DNA of 64,000 nt, from NCBI GenBank assembly GCA_964016885.1, contig OZ024755.1, forward strand, positions 30,752,001 through 30,816,000. Reading direction: 5' to 3'. Numbering within the stretch: the stretch's first letter is position 1; the number at the start of each line of letters is the position of its first letter. The position numbers and the translations under genes were made by a program. This DNA comes from Eledone cirrhosa. Taxonomy: Eukaryota. This document shows positions 31,398-60,302 of this stretch, in pieces. The notes beneath the pieces are model-generated. The model was given only the letters and a program-made list of their open reading frames with translations, ran no database searches and was not told the DNA's origin.

Positions 31398-31588
31398 TAA
31401 CGGAGGAGTTGTGGTAAGGAACCAGATTGACCATAACGCACCAGAGTACTCAATACTTAGGTTAGTAGAGTGGGTAATAGGAGAAAGTATGACCCCGACG
31501 GCAGAGCTCAAGCCGTTTCGACGGCTATTTCCAGAAATAGCCGTCGAAACGGCTTGAGCTCTGCCGTTGGGGTCATACTTTCTCCTAT
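31398..31588. mobile_element. Family E short element with fold-back hairpin end
   Basis: GACCATAACGCACCAGAGTACTC...GAGCTC unit (>10 copies in the window); palindrome at about 31478-31588. Confidence 0.8.
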
Positions 31589-31935
31589 ATATATATAAAG
31601 TTTATCCCGGGTTCAATCGGGGGTATATATAACTCTTAAAGTTACATAAATATATATATAAACTAGTCTGTGCACAATTATAATATTATGCTGCAGCATT
31701 AAAAGAACGCTTATTGCCTACAGCAGACTCAAAAGCGCCGCCCCCAAAAAGTGTTGCCCGGGGCTGACCACCCGCCTCTAGCTACGTTACTACTAAAACC
31801 TTCCGTTCTAGTTTATTGTAAGAACATTTTTTAAGTTCTGTAGCAACCCACAAATTTAATAACGCCAATGTTGGAAACATTTCTAAAGACTCCAAATTTT
31901 TGATTATTTTTAATTTTTTTATTTTAATCATAGAG

Positions 31936-32128
31936 CAGGGTTTCCTAAACATTTTCAAACGCTGAACCCTTTTTGGTTCAGAAACTTTTTGGGGGGTTGG
32001 GGGACCCCAAAGTCTAATACTGTTATATAGTCGTAATATAAATATACTCCTCTACCTTTTTTCGTGGAACCCCAGACATTCGTTTGCGGAATTCTTGGGT
32101 TCCGCGGAAATCACTTTGGGAACCACTG
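31936..32128. mobile_element. hAT/Charlie-like MITE
   Basis: TIRs CAGGGTTTCCTAAA / TTTGGGAACCACTG; 8-bp flanks TCATAGAG and CTATAGAG. Confidence 0.75.
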
Positions 32129-32394
32129 CTATAGAGTGCCTGTCTAATTCTAATTTGAATTATTAATAGATCTATTAGATGGGAATATGTAATATTATGA
32201 TTCATTAAACTTATTAATCAATAATTAAACTTAATTGATATTTTCCCCAATCAGACTATAACTAACAATACATCGTGTTACTTATTATCCTCGGTAAATG
32301 AAGTCAGGATTTAGAAACAGGTAACATTTTATTGCTTACAATTGCAATGTTAATTTTATGCCGTTTGTTGGTGTGTATCATCATTCAATTGTGT

Positions 32395-32650
32395 GTGTGT
32401 GTATGAGTGTGTGTAAGCAACACTGTATGTGTGTGTGTTGGTGAGTGTATGTAGCCACACTGTATATGTGTGTTGGTGAGTGTATGTAGCAACACTGTAT
32501 ATGTGTGCGTGTAATTAGCACTGTGTATATGCGTGTGTAAGCAACACTGTGCGTATGTGTGCGTGTAATCAGCACTGTGTGTATGTGTAAGCAACACTGT
32601 GTGTGTGTGTGTGTGTGTAATCAGCAGTGTGTGAGAGTGAGTGTGTGTGT
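32395..32650. repeat. Degenerate ~20-30-bp minisatellite (GCAACACTGT + GT spacer)
   Basis: About 8 recurrences of CACTGT separated by GT-rich runs. Confidence 0.7.
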
Positions 32651-33189
32651 ATATTGAGAGTGTTGTTCAGGTTGTGTGGTTTCCAATGATATATGAAATT
32701 AATACAATAAAATAACAGGAAATATGGGACTATCAAATTCATGTTTAGACTATAGATGTGTTACTGCTCGTTTTAGGAGGATTGCGTGTTAGAGATATGT
32801 AACACATACAAACATACATGAAGAGACGTGTGTATGTCTTATATATATATATATATATATATATATATATATAAGACATCCACACGTGTATGTTTGTGTG
32901 TGTGTATATATATATATATATATAGTTGTTATATAGTAAGGTGTATTATTGGTTGTGCAAAACGGTCCAGTAAATTTTTGTTAGCAATATTAAGTCTCGA
33001 CGCTTTAGTATATCTCATCTCCAATTCCATTCAAGGGATGAAAATCGATCGATCTATCTCTTATTGAAACATGTGTCGTGATTAAAATGATTGGAAATTT
33101 TACCTTGCCTTCGGATTTTCATTTTGATATATGTATATATATATATATATATATATATATATATATATATATATATATATATATATATA

Positions 33190-33410
33190 TAAAGGATCGA
33201 TCGACTTTCGTCAAATCGGACCGAGGAAACAATGATTCCGTCGGTCATTCCAGTTGCTAGTACTATCCATCGGTCGCAACTCCAGGCAGAAGGAGCAACG
33301 TGAAATAAAGTGTCTTGCTCAAGGACATAACGCATCGCACGGGCCAGGAATCGAACTCACAACCTCAAGATTGTGAATCCAATTCTCTAACCACTCAACC
33401 ACACGCCTTA
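33190..33410 (-). mobile_element. tRNA-derived SINE family B (Meta/MESC-like core)
   Basis: B box GAGTTCGATTCC and core TGTCCTTGAGCAAGACACTTTATTTCAC. Relatives at about 23155, 40210, 44690 and 48820. Confidence 0.75.
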
Positions 33411-33934
33411 TTTATTTATATATATAAATATATATATATATACATGTATAAATATCTATATTCTAAATGTTTAAATATCTATATTCTAAATGTTTAAATA
33501 TATATATATATATATATACGATATTAAATAAATGGAAACTATATTTATAAAACCATATTTATTTCATTATATATATTTCAGGGATATCATATTAACAATA
33601 TGTTATGCCTTCTTCAGACAAAATACAATATAGACAGTTTTATAGATACTCCAAATACGTGTTGAGTGCTTTTATATCAGTTATAAATATTTACTAGTTG
33701 TAACCCAACAATTTAAATATAACTTTCCATATATATATATATATAAATATATATATATATATAAATATATATATATATATATATATATATATATATATAT
33801 ATATATTTAAACATTTAGAATATAGATATTTATACATTGAGCTATTTCTCTTACTGGTAATAGGGTAGTAGGAAACTACTGACCTTTCCTGTTTATAGTT
33901 GTTTATAGTATATACATAACTATAAATATTATTA

Positions 33935-57249: not shown

Positions 57250-58084
57250 CAGGGGTGTGCAACATATTCTATTGGCGGGCCACTTTTGAACATTGGAACA
57301 ACTTGAAGATAGTATTAAATAAAGATATATATATGTGTGTGTGAAAATGTTAATATTTGTATTTGTGTATTGTGTATTTTGTATCGATAGAGGTCACCAG
57401 GGAAGCAGTTAAAGGCAATGTTGTGGTAAATAGCATCATAAGACTTTATAATGTCTATACATATAATTTATTTACAAACCAATTACAAATGTTTAGCTGG
57501 TATGCCAAAACAAATTAAGAGTTTAAGAAGGTACGGTCAACTGGTTGGGGCGTTAGCCAGGTCCGTAGTGATGTTTTGCCGTTACATATTGTTTATGCTT
57601 GAGAAACAAAATCAAGAGGCTGTTACCTTAGCGATGTCGAGCTGCAAAGAGAGAGTTTATCGAAAAGAAGCGGGAATTTCTCCCTTTGGGCGGAAGTTGA
57701 GATACATTTTCCTACGTTGCTAGCAATTGGCTTAGCTCAGCCAAATAATGTACAGAAAGGGTATTAATGCGCCAAAGGAAGGTAGCTCGTTACAAACTCT
57801 TCGGGCCAGTTACTGTCAAAAATATGTAATCTAATAAAAAAAAAAAAAAAAACAGTGAATTGAGTCATAAATACATTGTGAATACATTTTTAAACAATAA
57901 AGCAAATAAAATATAATTTAGTTTTATTAATGAGAGACTTGGTATTTGATGGTTTTGCACAATTTATCAATGTCTGGTTACGAAAAATATTATAAATAAG
58001 CCTACAAGGTAAAAATTCGTGGGCCACACTGTCTGGTCTGGCGGTCCGGATTGTGGCCCACGGGTCACTTGTTGCATGCCCCTG
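57250..58084. mobile_element. Non-autonomous hAT (Charlie-like) element
   Basis: TIRs CAGGGGTGTGCAAC / GTTGCATGCCCCTG; 8-bp TSD CTTTAGAA / TTTTAGAA. Confidence 0.82.
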
Positions 58085-58399
58085 TTTTAGAATGTTCAAA
58101 GAATTTTTGGTGTAATGCATGTTGCTCTTTCGACGAAAACATTCTTTATTATATTCCATATTGGCAAGGAGAAACGATTTGTGGAAACCGATACAATTAG
58201 GGTATATTTCGTGGTGTCGTGTCGTGTGGGAACAACCTAAAATTATCATAGAGTGATTGGGTATACACTCCTGATCAAGAATTTCAATGTCCCCAAGTAT
58301 ATATTGACACGATGTTAACACTTCTCACAATTTTCATGATTTTATAAAGAGACACGTGTCATTTTCTTTTTGAGTTCATTCAACAACCAATTTTAAGTA

Positions 58400-58566
58400 C
58401 CGTATTTCCCGGCGCCGAAGACGCTTCGTGCTCGAGAACGCACCCTAATTTTGATAACCAAAAATTTGAAAAAAAAAATAAACAACTTTCGGCCTCCAAG
58501 ATGCATGGTAGATTTCTTAGACTTATTTTAGGGAAAAAGTAGCGTCTTCGACGCCGGGAAATACGA
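58400..58566. mobile_element. Tc1/mariner (pogo/Tc2-like) MITE
   Basis: TA-flanked TIRs CCGTATTTCCCGGCGCCGAAGACGC / GCGTCTTCGACGCCGGGAAATACGA. Confidence 0.82.
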
Positions 58567-58742
58567 TATGTACACATTGTATCACCCTTATTCTGCCTTG
58601 GATTTATGATTAGGACACTCGTGTTTGTGGGAGACTCAGTCACTTACACATTCATTTAATGAGTCGGAAGTTCAGTTGATCAAACATTGAATACTCATTG
58701 TCGAAACCAACGCAACATCCATCAATTATATAAATGTAAAAT

Positions 58743-58918
58743 CAGACCTGCCAACCTCTAAAAACCCAAACGGAGAGTACCATGAAAAAGGGGGCCCCAA
58801 AATGAGGAGATTTTACATAATGAAAGCTATGCCCATTTTCACAAAAACGAGGAGACGGGGAGAAATGAGCCAAAACGGGGAGATGACCCCCGTCGGACGG
58901 GGAGAGTTGACAGGTCTG
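58743..58918. mobile_element. hAT-like MITE
   Basis: TIRs CAGACCTGCCAAC / GTTGACAGGTCTG. Partial relatives at about 7168-7285, 8540-8623 and 46570-46676. No clear TSD. Confidence 0.68.
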
Positions 58919-59193
58919 TTTGATGTATCATTATAATAATGCACAAAATGTTCAAAGAATGCGTACACATGTGCCTCTGTGTTTATATACGTGTATGTAT
59001 ATATATATATCATTTTTTAATTTGTTTTGTAAGATTTCTTATTTGAAAACGTGTGTTGAAACAGATATTGTTATAATTTGGGAGGGTCATGCTGCCAATA
59101 AAAACACGCACTTGTTGGTTTTCACTTCAATTATAAATTTCAGGTTGGTTGGTTGGTTGATTGCTTTCATAACCGCGTGGTTGTTTATATATT

Positions 59194-59236
59194 GTCAAAG
59201 CTCTTTCGTCACACTTTCTGTGACCTCCTCAGTGAC
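59194..59236 (-). ncRNA. Type-I hammerhead motif in family D element (59015-59270)
   Basis: GTCA-CTGAGGA-G-GTCACA GAAAG TGTGAC-GAAAGAGCTT-TGAC. Confidence 0.8.
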
Positions 59237-60302
59237 TAGGTTTATTTTGTGTCTCTCCTTTGTTCTGTCCTACATCATATATATATATATATATATATAT
59301 ATATATATATATATATATATATATATATATATATATATATATATATATATATAGGAAAAGAATCAAGACCACGACGGCTGAGCTCCGGTCGTTTCGACAG
59401 CTAGATCCGTTCGAATCTAGCTGTCGAAACGACCAGAGCTCAGCCGTCGTGGTCCTGACTCTTTTACTATTACCCACTCACTACCCTAGGTATTGAGTAC
59501 TCTGGTGCGTTATGGTCCACACCCAGTGAGAGAATATGCTCCGAAATCATTAGACATGTCCGTCGAACCTGCGGGTCCAGAATCAGACAGATCCACACAA
59601 TGATCGCGTCTCGAGCTGTCCACCCGGGAAACAATTGTAACACACAATAAATTGAGTTCAGATGCATCACTGATTTTTCGTTTTCTATTCTATCATACTC
59701 TGCTCTGTAAGAGCATGGAGTGCTCAACGGGCATACCGCCTATGGAAGCATCTTAGCTACCATCAGACACACACACATATATATATATATATATATATTA
59801 GAAAGTGAGGTTTTTTTTTTACAAAATGAGTGAAAGTATAAAGAAAAAGAGATGAAATCGAAAATGCAACTGGAGTCTTATTTTTTTTTTAAATATATAT
59901 ATTTATTTGGTTCCTTTACCGGTTTCGCAGTTCTTCTGCTTTTCAAAAGGTGAGTTGAGATGGAGGGTCTGTGGTTTTTCTCACATATATATATATATAT
60001 ATATATATATACTGTATATATATATATATACTGTATATATATATATATATATATATATATATATATATATATATATATATATATATATAATCAATAATAA
60101 GTTTTTGATTAGATACAATAGATCGTTGTTTCAGAAGTGTTGGGGAATAGAATGTTACTATAGTGATGCCTCTCTCATCAGTATGAAGAATCAAAACAAC
60201 TAATTGGGATTCGACATGTCGAAGCTTAGTAATTACCCTACGGTGCTAATAGCATATACACATATGTAATATTTTGTTTGATTTTGTTGTTTTCCTATCC
60301 AG

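What the first reader, a model, noticed from the sequence alone, without database searches (positions are those of the whole stretch)
31478..59470. Family E hairpins turn at ribozyme stem II: repeated independent fold-back events
Palindromes at about 31478-31588, 47830-47910, 50877-50991, 51115-51233 and 59354-59468 duplicate the same segment. Their axes lie at or just 5' of the GAAAC, with a different junction each time (TTTCCAGAAA, TCTCGA, TCTGGACTAGA, CCGAACAGTTCGG, CCGTTCGA). The copy at 54140-54195 keeps more 5' sequence on the minus strand: TGATGA-TTTAGATCAGAAC TGA GTTCGGAACTAG...GAAACGGCCGTA. This suggests the axis is hammerhead stem II. Inference: nascent cDNA snaps back in stem II and self-primes, leaving a hairpin insert without the CUGAUGA half.
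Basis: partly seen in the sequence, partly recalled or inferred. Interest (0 to 1): 0.72.

Follow-up and report, generated by a model that had tools for sequence, protein, structure and literature searches.

The report
Penelope twin-copy stubs, not ribozyme snap-backs
These five DNA hairpins are real, stub-sized insertions of an abundant Penelope-type jumping gene, and they likely form when its RNA is copied from two start points until both copies run off the RNA's predicted capped 5' end and are joined head to head, rather than by one copy folding back on the ribozyme stem.

Summary
The five palindromes are real. 'Family E' is the terminal repeat/5' UTR of a Hydra-clade Penelope-like retrotransposon (39,764 exact core matches, at least 7,631 tight hairpins). 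Each hairpin is the known Penelope layout: a tail-bearing arm plus an inverted tail-less arm in (TA)n. Arm ends are not enriched on the paired stem II strand (10 of 79, expected 10) but pile up at -22..-17 in loop II (36 of 79), often with an extra G. A second family stops 29-31 nt after a conserved TATA-like box, outside stem II. Stem-II snap-back products: 0 of 4 matches have the predicted polarity. The tail-less arm is longer in 31 of 63 hairpins and 11 do not overlap. Best reading: twin priming on one RNA with run-off at a predicted capped start. No RNA data were available. The scan reached this reading before on other DNA of this genome.

The parts
31399..31531 (-). Hairpin 1, tail-bearing arm (element positions -12..+120 from the G of GAAAC), subfamily E2
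31530..31588 (+). Hairpin 1, inverted tail-less arm (-16..+42); longer than the tail arm at the junction
47828..47877 (-). Hairpin 2, tail-less arm (-7..+42), subfamily E3
47873..47989 (+). Hairpin 2, tail-bearing arm (+4..+120)
50874..50935 (-). Hairpin 3, tail-less arm (-19..+42), reaches the -18 wall; subfamily E2
50939..51064 (+). Hairpin 3, tail-bearing arm (-11..+114)
51113..51174 (-). Hairpin 4, tail-less arm (-17..+44), subfamily E1
51175..51303 (+). Hairpin 4, tail-bearing arm starting at the -18 A (predicted transcription start)
54032..54173 (-). Tail-bearing E1 arm ending at -18 with a non-natural G at -19 (54173)
54174..54198 (.).
54235..54310 (-). Tail-less E1 arm ending at -18 with G and a 17-nt filler
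54636..54714 (+). Tail-less E1 arm with the same filler and G, facing away from the previous one
59351..59409 (-). Hairpin 5, tail-less arm (-14..+44), subfamily E1; shares private variants with its partner arm
59409..59520 (+). Hairpin 5, tail-bearing arm (-17..+95, interrupted)
37547..37645 (.).
56420..56507 (.). Second non-overlapping inversion: tail fragment (+71..+122, minus) joined to tail-less arm (-5..+31, plus)
15754..15918 (.).
21990..22123 (+). Solo tail-bearing E1 arm starting at -18

Best explanation
The hairpins are minimal insertions of a Hydra-clade Penelope-like retrotransposon, each made of a tail-bearing arm and an inverted tail-less arm, and they likely arise by twin priming on one RNA with run-off at its predicted capped 5' end. 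Shown: family E is the terminal repeat that follows the 3' UTR and, in tandem copies, reads on into the RT/GIY-YIG ORF; arms begin at two fixed sites (+42 and +120) beside (TA)n; their inner ends pile up at -22..-17 inside hammerhead loop II. Inferred: the element's promoter starts a capped RNA at the -18 A; the two ends of a cut (TA)n target prime reverse transcription at +42 and +120 of that 5' repeat; both cDNAs run to the cap within 60-140 nt, often gaining a C opposite the cap (extra G) or an A-rich tail; the two free ends are trimmed and joined head to head, often at 1-6 nt of microhomology. Priming at the downstream repeat gives the long inverted copies instead. The core half of the ribozyme is missing because this RNA would start downstream of it, not because stem II guides a fold-back.
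For: Element anatomy. Fixed outer ends: 49 of 63 tail-less arms end at +42 or +44 (subfamily numbering), 21 of 50 solo arms are tail-less, 63 of 64 pairs are one arm of each kind; two RT start sites flanking the tail were shown in vitro for another PLE (PMC11167929, parts 1-2 of 4 read). Wall: stop rate per base 0.29 at -22..-17 against 0.018 on the paired strand, 0.005-0.008 downstream and 0.02 or less upstream, 121 arms in 834 kb; 36 of 79 hairpin arm ends, p=5e-21 against uniform. Extra G: base -19 is G in 4,854 and A in 800 copies, natural base T or C; 0 of 30 G copies are natural read-through and 16 of 30 are not explained by the partner arm; 6 facing G-G pairs among the first 100 listed, five with 0-2 nt spacers (coordinates); an extra G marks the cap in full-length L1 insertions (PMC11702581, passage). 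Control family G: 16 of 30 stored copies stop at one A outside stem II, 9 with G, and the 14 read-through copies carry a TAAATA box at -29 to -31. Polarity: tail-less arm longer in 31, equal 15, tail arm longer 17, non-overlapping 11 of 63. One template: arms differ by 4.2% within and 13.3% between hairpins, 38 hairpins.
Against: No RNA data, so the start site and cap are inferred from DNA only. In family E the commonest -19 base is T (15,563), and 16 of 30 T copies are neither read-through nor partner-derived, so the wall is a few bases wide and A/T fillers fit either model. 14 of 30 G copies could take the G from the partner arm; in family G the 5' end is a palindromic AGCT, which confounds the -1 base. 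A TATA-like box precedes -18 only in E3 (weak in E2, absent in E1), and E1 shows a second stop near -29 (by eye). No ORF-bearing copy starting at -18 was found among 5 read-on copies; one starts near +23. Later deletion inside palindromes could create asymmetric and non-overlapping junctions from symmetric fold-backs. End positions come from local alignment and can be off by a few bases; 444 of the 834 kb sampled surround the window; the two arms of a hairpin are not independent.
Confidence: 0.68

Rival explanations
1. Run-off at the RNA 5' end followed by self-priming: one tail-bearing cDNA reaches -18, folds on a short local palindrome or on untemplated bases, and copies itself back to +42; later deletions make the asymmetric cases. 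This is the published self-priming idea moved from stem II to the RNA end.
For: Arms share private variants; many junctions sit on short palindromes or A/T fillers that could fold; the tail arm is longer in 17 of 63; palindromes at inverted PLE junctions were read as self-priming in PMC3846280 (passages).
Against: Tail-less arm longer in 31 of 63 and non-overlapping in 11; in the commonest C-type junction the unique bases lie on the tail-less arm in 8 and on the tail arm in 3 clear cases of the 30 loci (by eye); solo and kilobase-long tail-less arms exist; facing G-G pairs with 0-2 nt spacers leave no room for a loop.
Confidence: 0.17
2. Twin priming, but the wall is a structural block: reverse transcriptase stalls in the upper part of the extended stem II or the folded hammerhead, or the RNA is processed there, and no promoter is involved.
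For: Loop II can form an upper helix whose 3' strand begins near -17 to -22; no RNA evidence for a start.
Against: Copies that pass -23 rarely stop in the remaining ribozyme; loop II differs strongly between subfamilies while the wall stays at -17/-18; family G stops 5' of its core motif at a fixed distance from a TATA-like box; the extra G is not predicted by stalling.
Confidence: 0.1
3. One reading: nascent cDNA snaps back through hammerhead stem II and self-primes.
For: Stem II is real (3 pairs with changes on both sides) and the axes lie near it; junctions with stem II homology exist (2 clear cases, L160 and L163).
Against: The arms end before the 5' strand of stem II is copied; 4 exact matches genome-wide against 7,631 hairpins, none with the predicted polarity; no enrichment on the paired strand (10 of 79, p=0.56); families F and G turn elsewhere.
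Confidence: 0.02
4. The hairpins are assembly or library fold-back artefacts, or one hairpin master copy amplified as a unit.
For: Identical junctions recur; no long read bridged the five loci.
Against: Arms have diverged from each other (4.2%); outer ends are fixed element sites in (TA)n; the same junction text occurs on different subfamily backgrounds and in both polarities; inverted joints appear in raw reads and contigs of other runs.
Confidence: 0.03

Closest known systems
Hydra clade of C-terminal EN+ Penelope-like elements (Craig et al. 2021, PMC8557442; passages read)
   Same: RT then GIY-YIG in one ORF, CxCx5C linker, no CCHH, DKT, RW-basic motif, C-terminal CxxC and CxH, (TA)n targets, hammerhead in the terminal repeat.
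   Different: RWR instead of RWK; ~1.3 kb 3' UTR; ~78-nt tail rather than 30-40 bp; U3-A8 core and a long loop II; no tree was built here.
Canonical PLE insertion layout: inverted 5'-truncated copy plus a tail at one end (PMC8557442; PMC3846280, passages)
   Same: Same two-armed layout; palindromes at the inverted junction; TATA and Inr-like motifs noted in pLTRs.
   Different: Here most insertions shrink to 60-140 nt arms with a sharp inner wall and an extra G; PMC3846280 proposed self-priming, which the polarity data disfavour.
PAc (Anolis Poseidon) in vitro: two RT start sites flanking the tail, both target strands cut and extended, predicted dimer (PMC11167929; parts 1-2 of 4 read)
   Same: Two fixed starts (+42, +120) bracketing the tail in the 5' repeat region; AT-rich target.
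   Different: In the parts read, the paper does not derive inverted stubs or their inner ends; different clade.
L1 twin priming and cap-derived extra G (PMC11702581, passages)
   Same: Second primer from the other target end, head-to-head join with microhomology, extra G at the RNA 5' end.
   Different: In L1 the second start is opportunistic and the pieces barely overlap; here it is a fixed site and the same 60 nt are usually copied twice.
Type I hammerheads of PLEs incl. the U3-A8 variant (Cervera and de la Pena 2014, PMC4209133; part 1 of 4 read)
   Same: Type I topology, palindromic loop III, U3-A8 covariation, pairs of motifs on opposite strands.
   Different: Stem III has 5 bp and loop II ~33 nt; the predicted transcription start falls inside loop II, so the stubs hold half a ribozyme.

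Membership tests
Penelope-like element (EN+) | Single ORF with RT and C-terminal GIY-YIG endonuclease | tested here: met
   Broken ORFs with YRDD and VIY..YIG motifs upstream of family E in L111, L112, L213, L214; 95 homologues, one named GIY-YIG endonuclease. Pfam gave no hit on 4 fragments at E 0.01.
Penelope-like element (EN+) | Partial tandems forming pLTRs; inverted truncated copy; tail at one end | tested here: met
   Tandem read-on from tail into 5' UTR and ORF; inverted arms of 0.4-1.3 kb; 63 of 64 pairs one tailed, one tail-less.
Hydra clade | CxCx5C linker and absence of CCHH in the endonuclease | tested here: met
   CNCPDRSSC; one Cys inside the GIY-YIG core (definition).
Hydra clade | DKT and RWK motifs; CxxC and CxH near the C-terminus; (TA)n insertion | tested here: met
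   SDKTG, LRWR (variant), PCNL(W/C)SEE and CKH; (TA)n flanks.
Hydra clade | Phylogenetic placement of the RT with Hydra references | not tested
   No reference set was fetched and no tree was built.
Type I hammerhead ribozyme | Three stems around a conserved core with NUH site | tested here: met
   93.6% of cells paired over 20 pairs in 15 long copies, 3 stem II pairs with changes on both sides, slid controls 25-52% (related copies, so not a probability); the three-way fold is the minimum-energy structure but z is only -1.2 and +0.2.
Type I hammerhead ribozyme | Canonical CUGANGA core | tested here: not met
   Core is UUGANAA (U3-A8, a published variant), with CUGAGAA and UUGAAGA in minor subfamilies; no Rfam hammerhead hit at gathering score in 5 loci.
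Type I hammerhead ribozyme | Self-cleavage | not testable with these tools
   Needs an in vitro assay.
Non-LTR retrozyme | Non-coding tandem repeats with a complete hammerhead in each unit | tested here: not met
   The stubs are dispersed, head to head and lack the core half; the complete motif belongs to an ORF-bearing element (definition).

The most novel reading that the evidence does not exclude
Penelope inverted repeats and tails are made by a two-headed integration in which both target ends prime at two fixed sites on one capped RNA, so thousands of stubs record each family's transcription start at base resolution; and in this family the start lies inside hammerhead loop II, so promoter-made RNA carries only the substrate half while read-through RNA carries the whole ribozyme, a split-ribozyme switch that would cut read-through but spare initiated transcripts in cis.
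Probability: 0.45. Interest if true: 0.72.

Novelty: new variant of a known kind. Interest (0 to 1): 0.52.

Why it matters
How Penelope-like elements make their inverted repeats and one-sided tail is stated as unresolved in PMC8557442 and PMC11167929, and the one explicit proposal I found is self-priming (PMC3846280; one hit). Thousands of stubs here allow a count-based test that favours two primed cDNAs and ties their inner ends to a predicted capped start. If right, start sites of these families can be read from DNA alone, and the hammerhead's position relative to the start (split in family E, whole in family G) becomes a testable regulatory feature. The two-armed layout and the clade are already known.

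Tried and rejected
CTGANGA upstream of the arm: 50 genome-wide matches, 30 inspected, none shares a common natural upstream; they are flanks, partner arms or other repeats. Rfam: only simple-repeat miRNA look-alikes in the window, no hammerhead in 5 loci. Pfam and PDB sequence searches gave nothing useful; the Atlas gave no answer. No RNA holder listed. The two read-laying runs used RAD-seq reads and contigs; many reads end at one position next to the axis of L260, probably a library cut, so spanning depth could not be measured. Ends at the predicted ribozyme cut (+24): about 3-4 of 56 tail arms plus L215, too few to call a peak. A downstream promoter element at +28..+32 from -18 (consensus recalled) is not evident. 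Small bulged hairpins after both start sites fold in 2 of 3 stretches tried but with z-scores of -0.9 to +0.1. Dropped before counts: arms within 60 nt of a block end, duplicate contexts, hits ending 5' of +5; one pair with two tail-less arms. Paper searches listed no paper that maps PLE inversion points to a cap or to stem II; subscription papers and bioRxiv supplements were not visible, and no supplement was read.
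Full report
Observation. The five palindromes are present with the quoted junctions. A BLAST of one arm found 21 hits in the window. Every hairpin has one arm with a ~78-nt tail and one arm that ends at ...TTCCT(AT), both against (TA)n. In the 3.0-Gb own genome a 29-nt core has 39,764 exact matches and tight hairpins (spacer up to 30 nt) number 7,631; reversed-pattern controls were 0. Positions below are counted from the G of GAAAC.

What the family is. Widely spaced inverted pairs on C1 enclose a broken ORF with RT and GIY-YIG motifs and a ~1.3-kb 3' UTR that runs into family E. 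In tandem copies the tail reads on into a 5' UTR and the ORF start, so family E is the pseudo-LTR. The motifs CNCx5C, DKT, RWR, CxxC, CxH, the lack of CCHH and the (TA)n targets match the Hydra clade as defined in PMC8557442 (passages). No tree was built. An inverted truncated copy and a one-sided tail are standard for these elements.

The ribozyme. Long copies of all subfamilies show ACCCC-TTGATAA-G-stem II-loop of ~33 nt-stem II-GAAAC-stem III-GTC-GGGGT (671 exact matches of one variant). In 15 long copies 93.6% of cells pair and three stem II pairs change on both sides; the three-way fold is the minimum-energy structure, though not more stable than shuffles. The core is the U3-A8 variant described in PMC4209133 (part 1 of 4). 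Of 50 CTGANGA-plus-arm matches, the 30 inspected share no natural upstream.

Where the arms end. In 834 kb chosen by position (444 kb around the window) 121 arms were mapped, plus 57 in 30 core-selected loci. The stop rate per base is 0.005-0.008 downstream of GAAAC, 0.018 on the paired stem II strand (-11..-3), 0.074 at -16..-12, 0.29 at -22..-17 and 0.02 or less beyond. Of 79 hairpin arm ends, 36 lie at -22..-17 (p=5e-21 against uniform), 10 at -11..-1 (p=0.56) and 2 beyond -23. The null is crude and paired arms are not independent, but the pattern is clear: enrichment is real and lies in loop II, above stem II.

Stem-II snap-back fails. It needs the cDNA to cross loop II and copy the 5' strand, leaving the whole loop on the tail-bearing arm. 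The exact product has 4 matches; three have the loop side on the tail-less arm and one is a chance match. Any single-cDNA fold-back also predicts that the tail arm is at least as long as the other. In 63 hairpins the tail-less arm is longer in 31, equal in 15, shorter in 17, and 11 do not overlap at all, including window 37547-37645 and 56420-56507. Tail-less arms also occur alone (21 of 50 solo arms) and as kilobase arms, so +42 behaves as a start, as shown in vitro for another PLE (PMC11167929, parts 1-2). Arms differ by 4.2% within and 13.3% between hairpins (38 hairpins), so both come from one template or source.

What the wall likely is. The -18 base is the A of TCAGT/TTAGT, an initiator-like context (consensus recalled; an Inr-like TCACT in a pLTR is noted in PMC3846280; a mapped start inside the D. 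virilis repeat in PMC2377424, passages). Base -19 is T in 15,563, G in 4,854, C in 4,140 and A in 800 copies; only T and C are natural. None of 30 G copies is read-through; 16 are not explained by the partner arm and 14 could be. Six facing pairs in the first 100 listed have G on both arms, five with 0-2 nt between. An extra G marks the cap in full-length L1 insertions (PMC11702581, passage). Against: 16 of 30 T copies end in A/T-rich filler, so the wall is not one base wide; E1 has a second stop near -29, several with G (by eye); a TATA-like box is seen only in E3.

Control families. Family G, another hammerhead-bearing repeat in the same DNA, turns 6 nt 5' of its CTGA core: of the first 100 listed, 35 stop at that A, 4 in the next 34 nt and 61 read through (by eye); in the 30 stored loci 16 stop (9 G, 5 A, 2 C) and 14 read through with a TAAATA box at -29 to -31. 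Family F ends lie roughly 55-90 nt 5' of its core (by eye, 23 rows). The turning point thus follows promoter-like spacing, not stem II.

Reality in reads. No long-read or RNA run was offered. RAD-seq reads and contigs show opposite-strand and skipping joints on the hairpin references, with up to 55 letters on the shorter side, and a loose-end consensus matching a G-type junction. The five loci were not bridged.

Mechanism. Shown: anatomy, two outer sites, inner wall, polarity, shared variants. Inferred: capped start at -18, priming from both target ends on one RNA, run-off, trimming and end joining. I give this 0.68, run-off plus fold-back 0.17, structural stalling 0.10, artefact or unit amplification 0.03 and stem-II snap-back 0.02. 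A corollary is that RNA started at -18 lacks the core half of the hammerhead, whereas read-through RNA has it whole; ends at the predicted cut (+24) are few here.

Novelty. Clade, layout and core variant are known. Seven paper searches (listings, plus the passages named) gave self-priming as the only explicit model for the inverted junction and no mapping to a cap. The O. vulgaris repeat paper has no occurrence of 'ribozyme' (PMC13282606, passages). After forming this reading I found that the scan had reached it on other DNA of this genome; those notes are not independent support.

Noticed in passing
window 54235-54310 and 54636-54714: Two tail-less E1 arms face away from each other about 325 nt apart and share the same 17-nt filler and G before -18; possibly a later local inverted duplication or a variant 5' end. 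Unexplained.
   Followed up: partly
window 47530-47790 and 59090-59275: Family F, another two-armed repeat with a canonical CTGAGGA/CTGAAGA hammerhead core; long copies have YY1-like and NRF1-like motifs (names recalled) near where arms end, 55-90 nt 5' of the core.
   Followed up: partly
window about 17880-17960; L314-L343: Family G repeat: conserved TATA-like box 29-31 nt before a single-base stop site that lies just 5' of a hammerhead-like core, so its predicted RNA would hold the whole motif at the 5' end.
   Followed up: partly
L069, L113, L122, L083: Subfamilies with core CUGAGAA (C3-A8 mismatch) or UUGAAGA (U3-G8), candidates for weakened ribozymes that still amplified.
   Followed up: no
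L215:2150-2620: An ORF-bearing arm whose 5' end lies near +23, next to the predicted ribozyme cut, joined to an inverted arm.
   Followed up: partly
L214:3697-3741 and window 51234-51278: A similar small bulged hairpin folds a few bases after each of the two outer start sites; not more stable than shuffles.
   Followed up: partly
L021, L040, L058: Head-to-head pairs whose arms look like different subfamilies or mosaics; rare, possibly nested insertions or two templates.
   Followed up: no
window 30712-31031: A 154-nt, 99% complementary inverted repeat with a 12-nt spacer, not family E.
   Followed up: no
L101:1203-4430: A 1,076-codon open frame about 6-9 kb before the window start.
   Followed up: no
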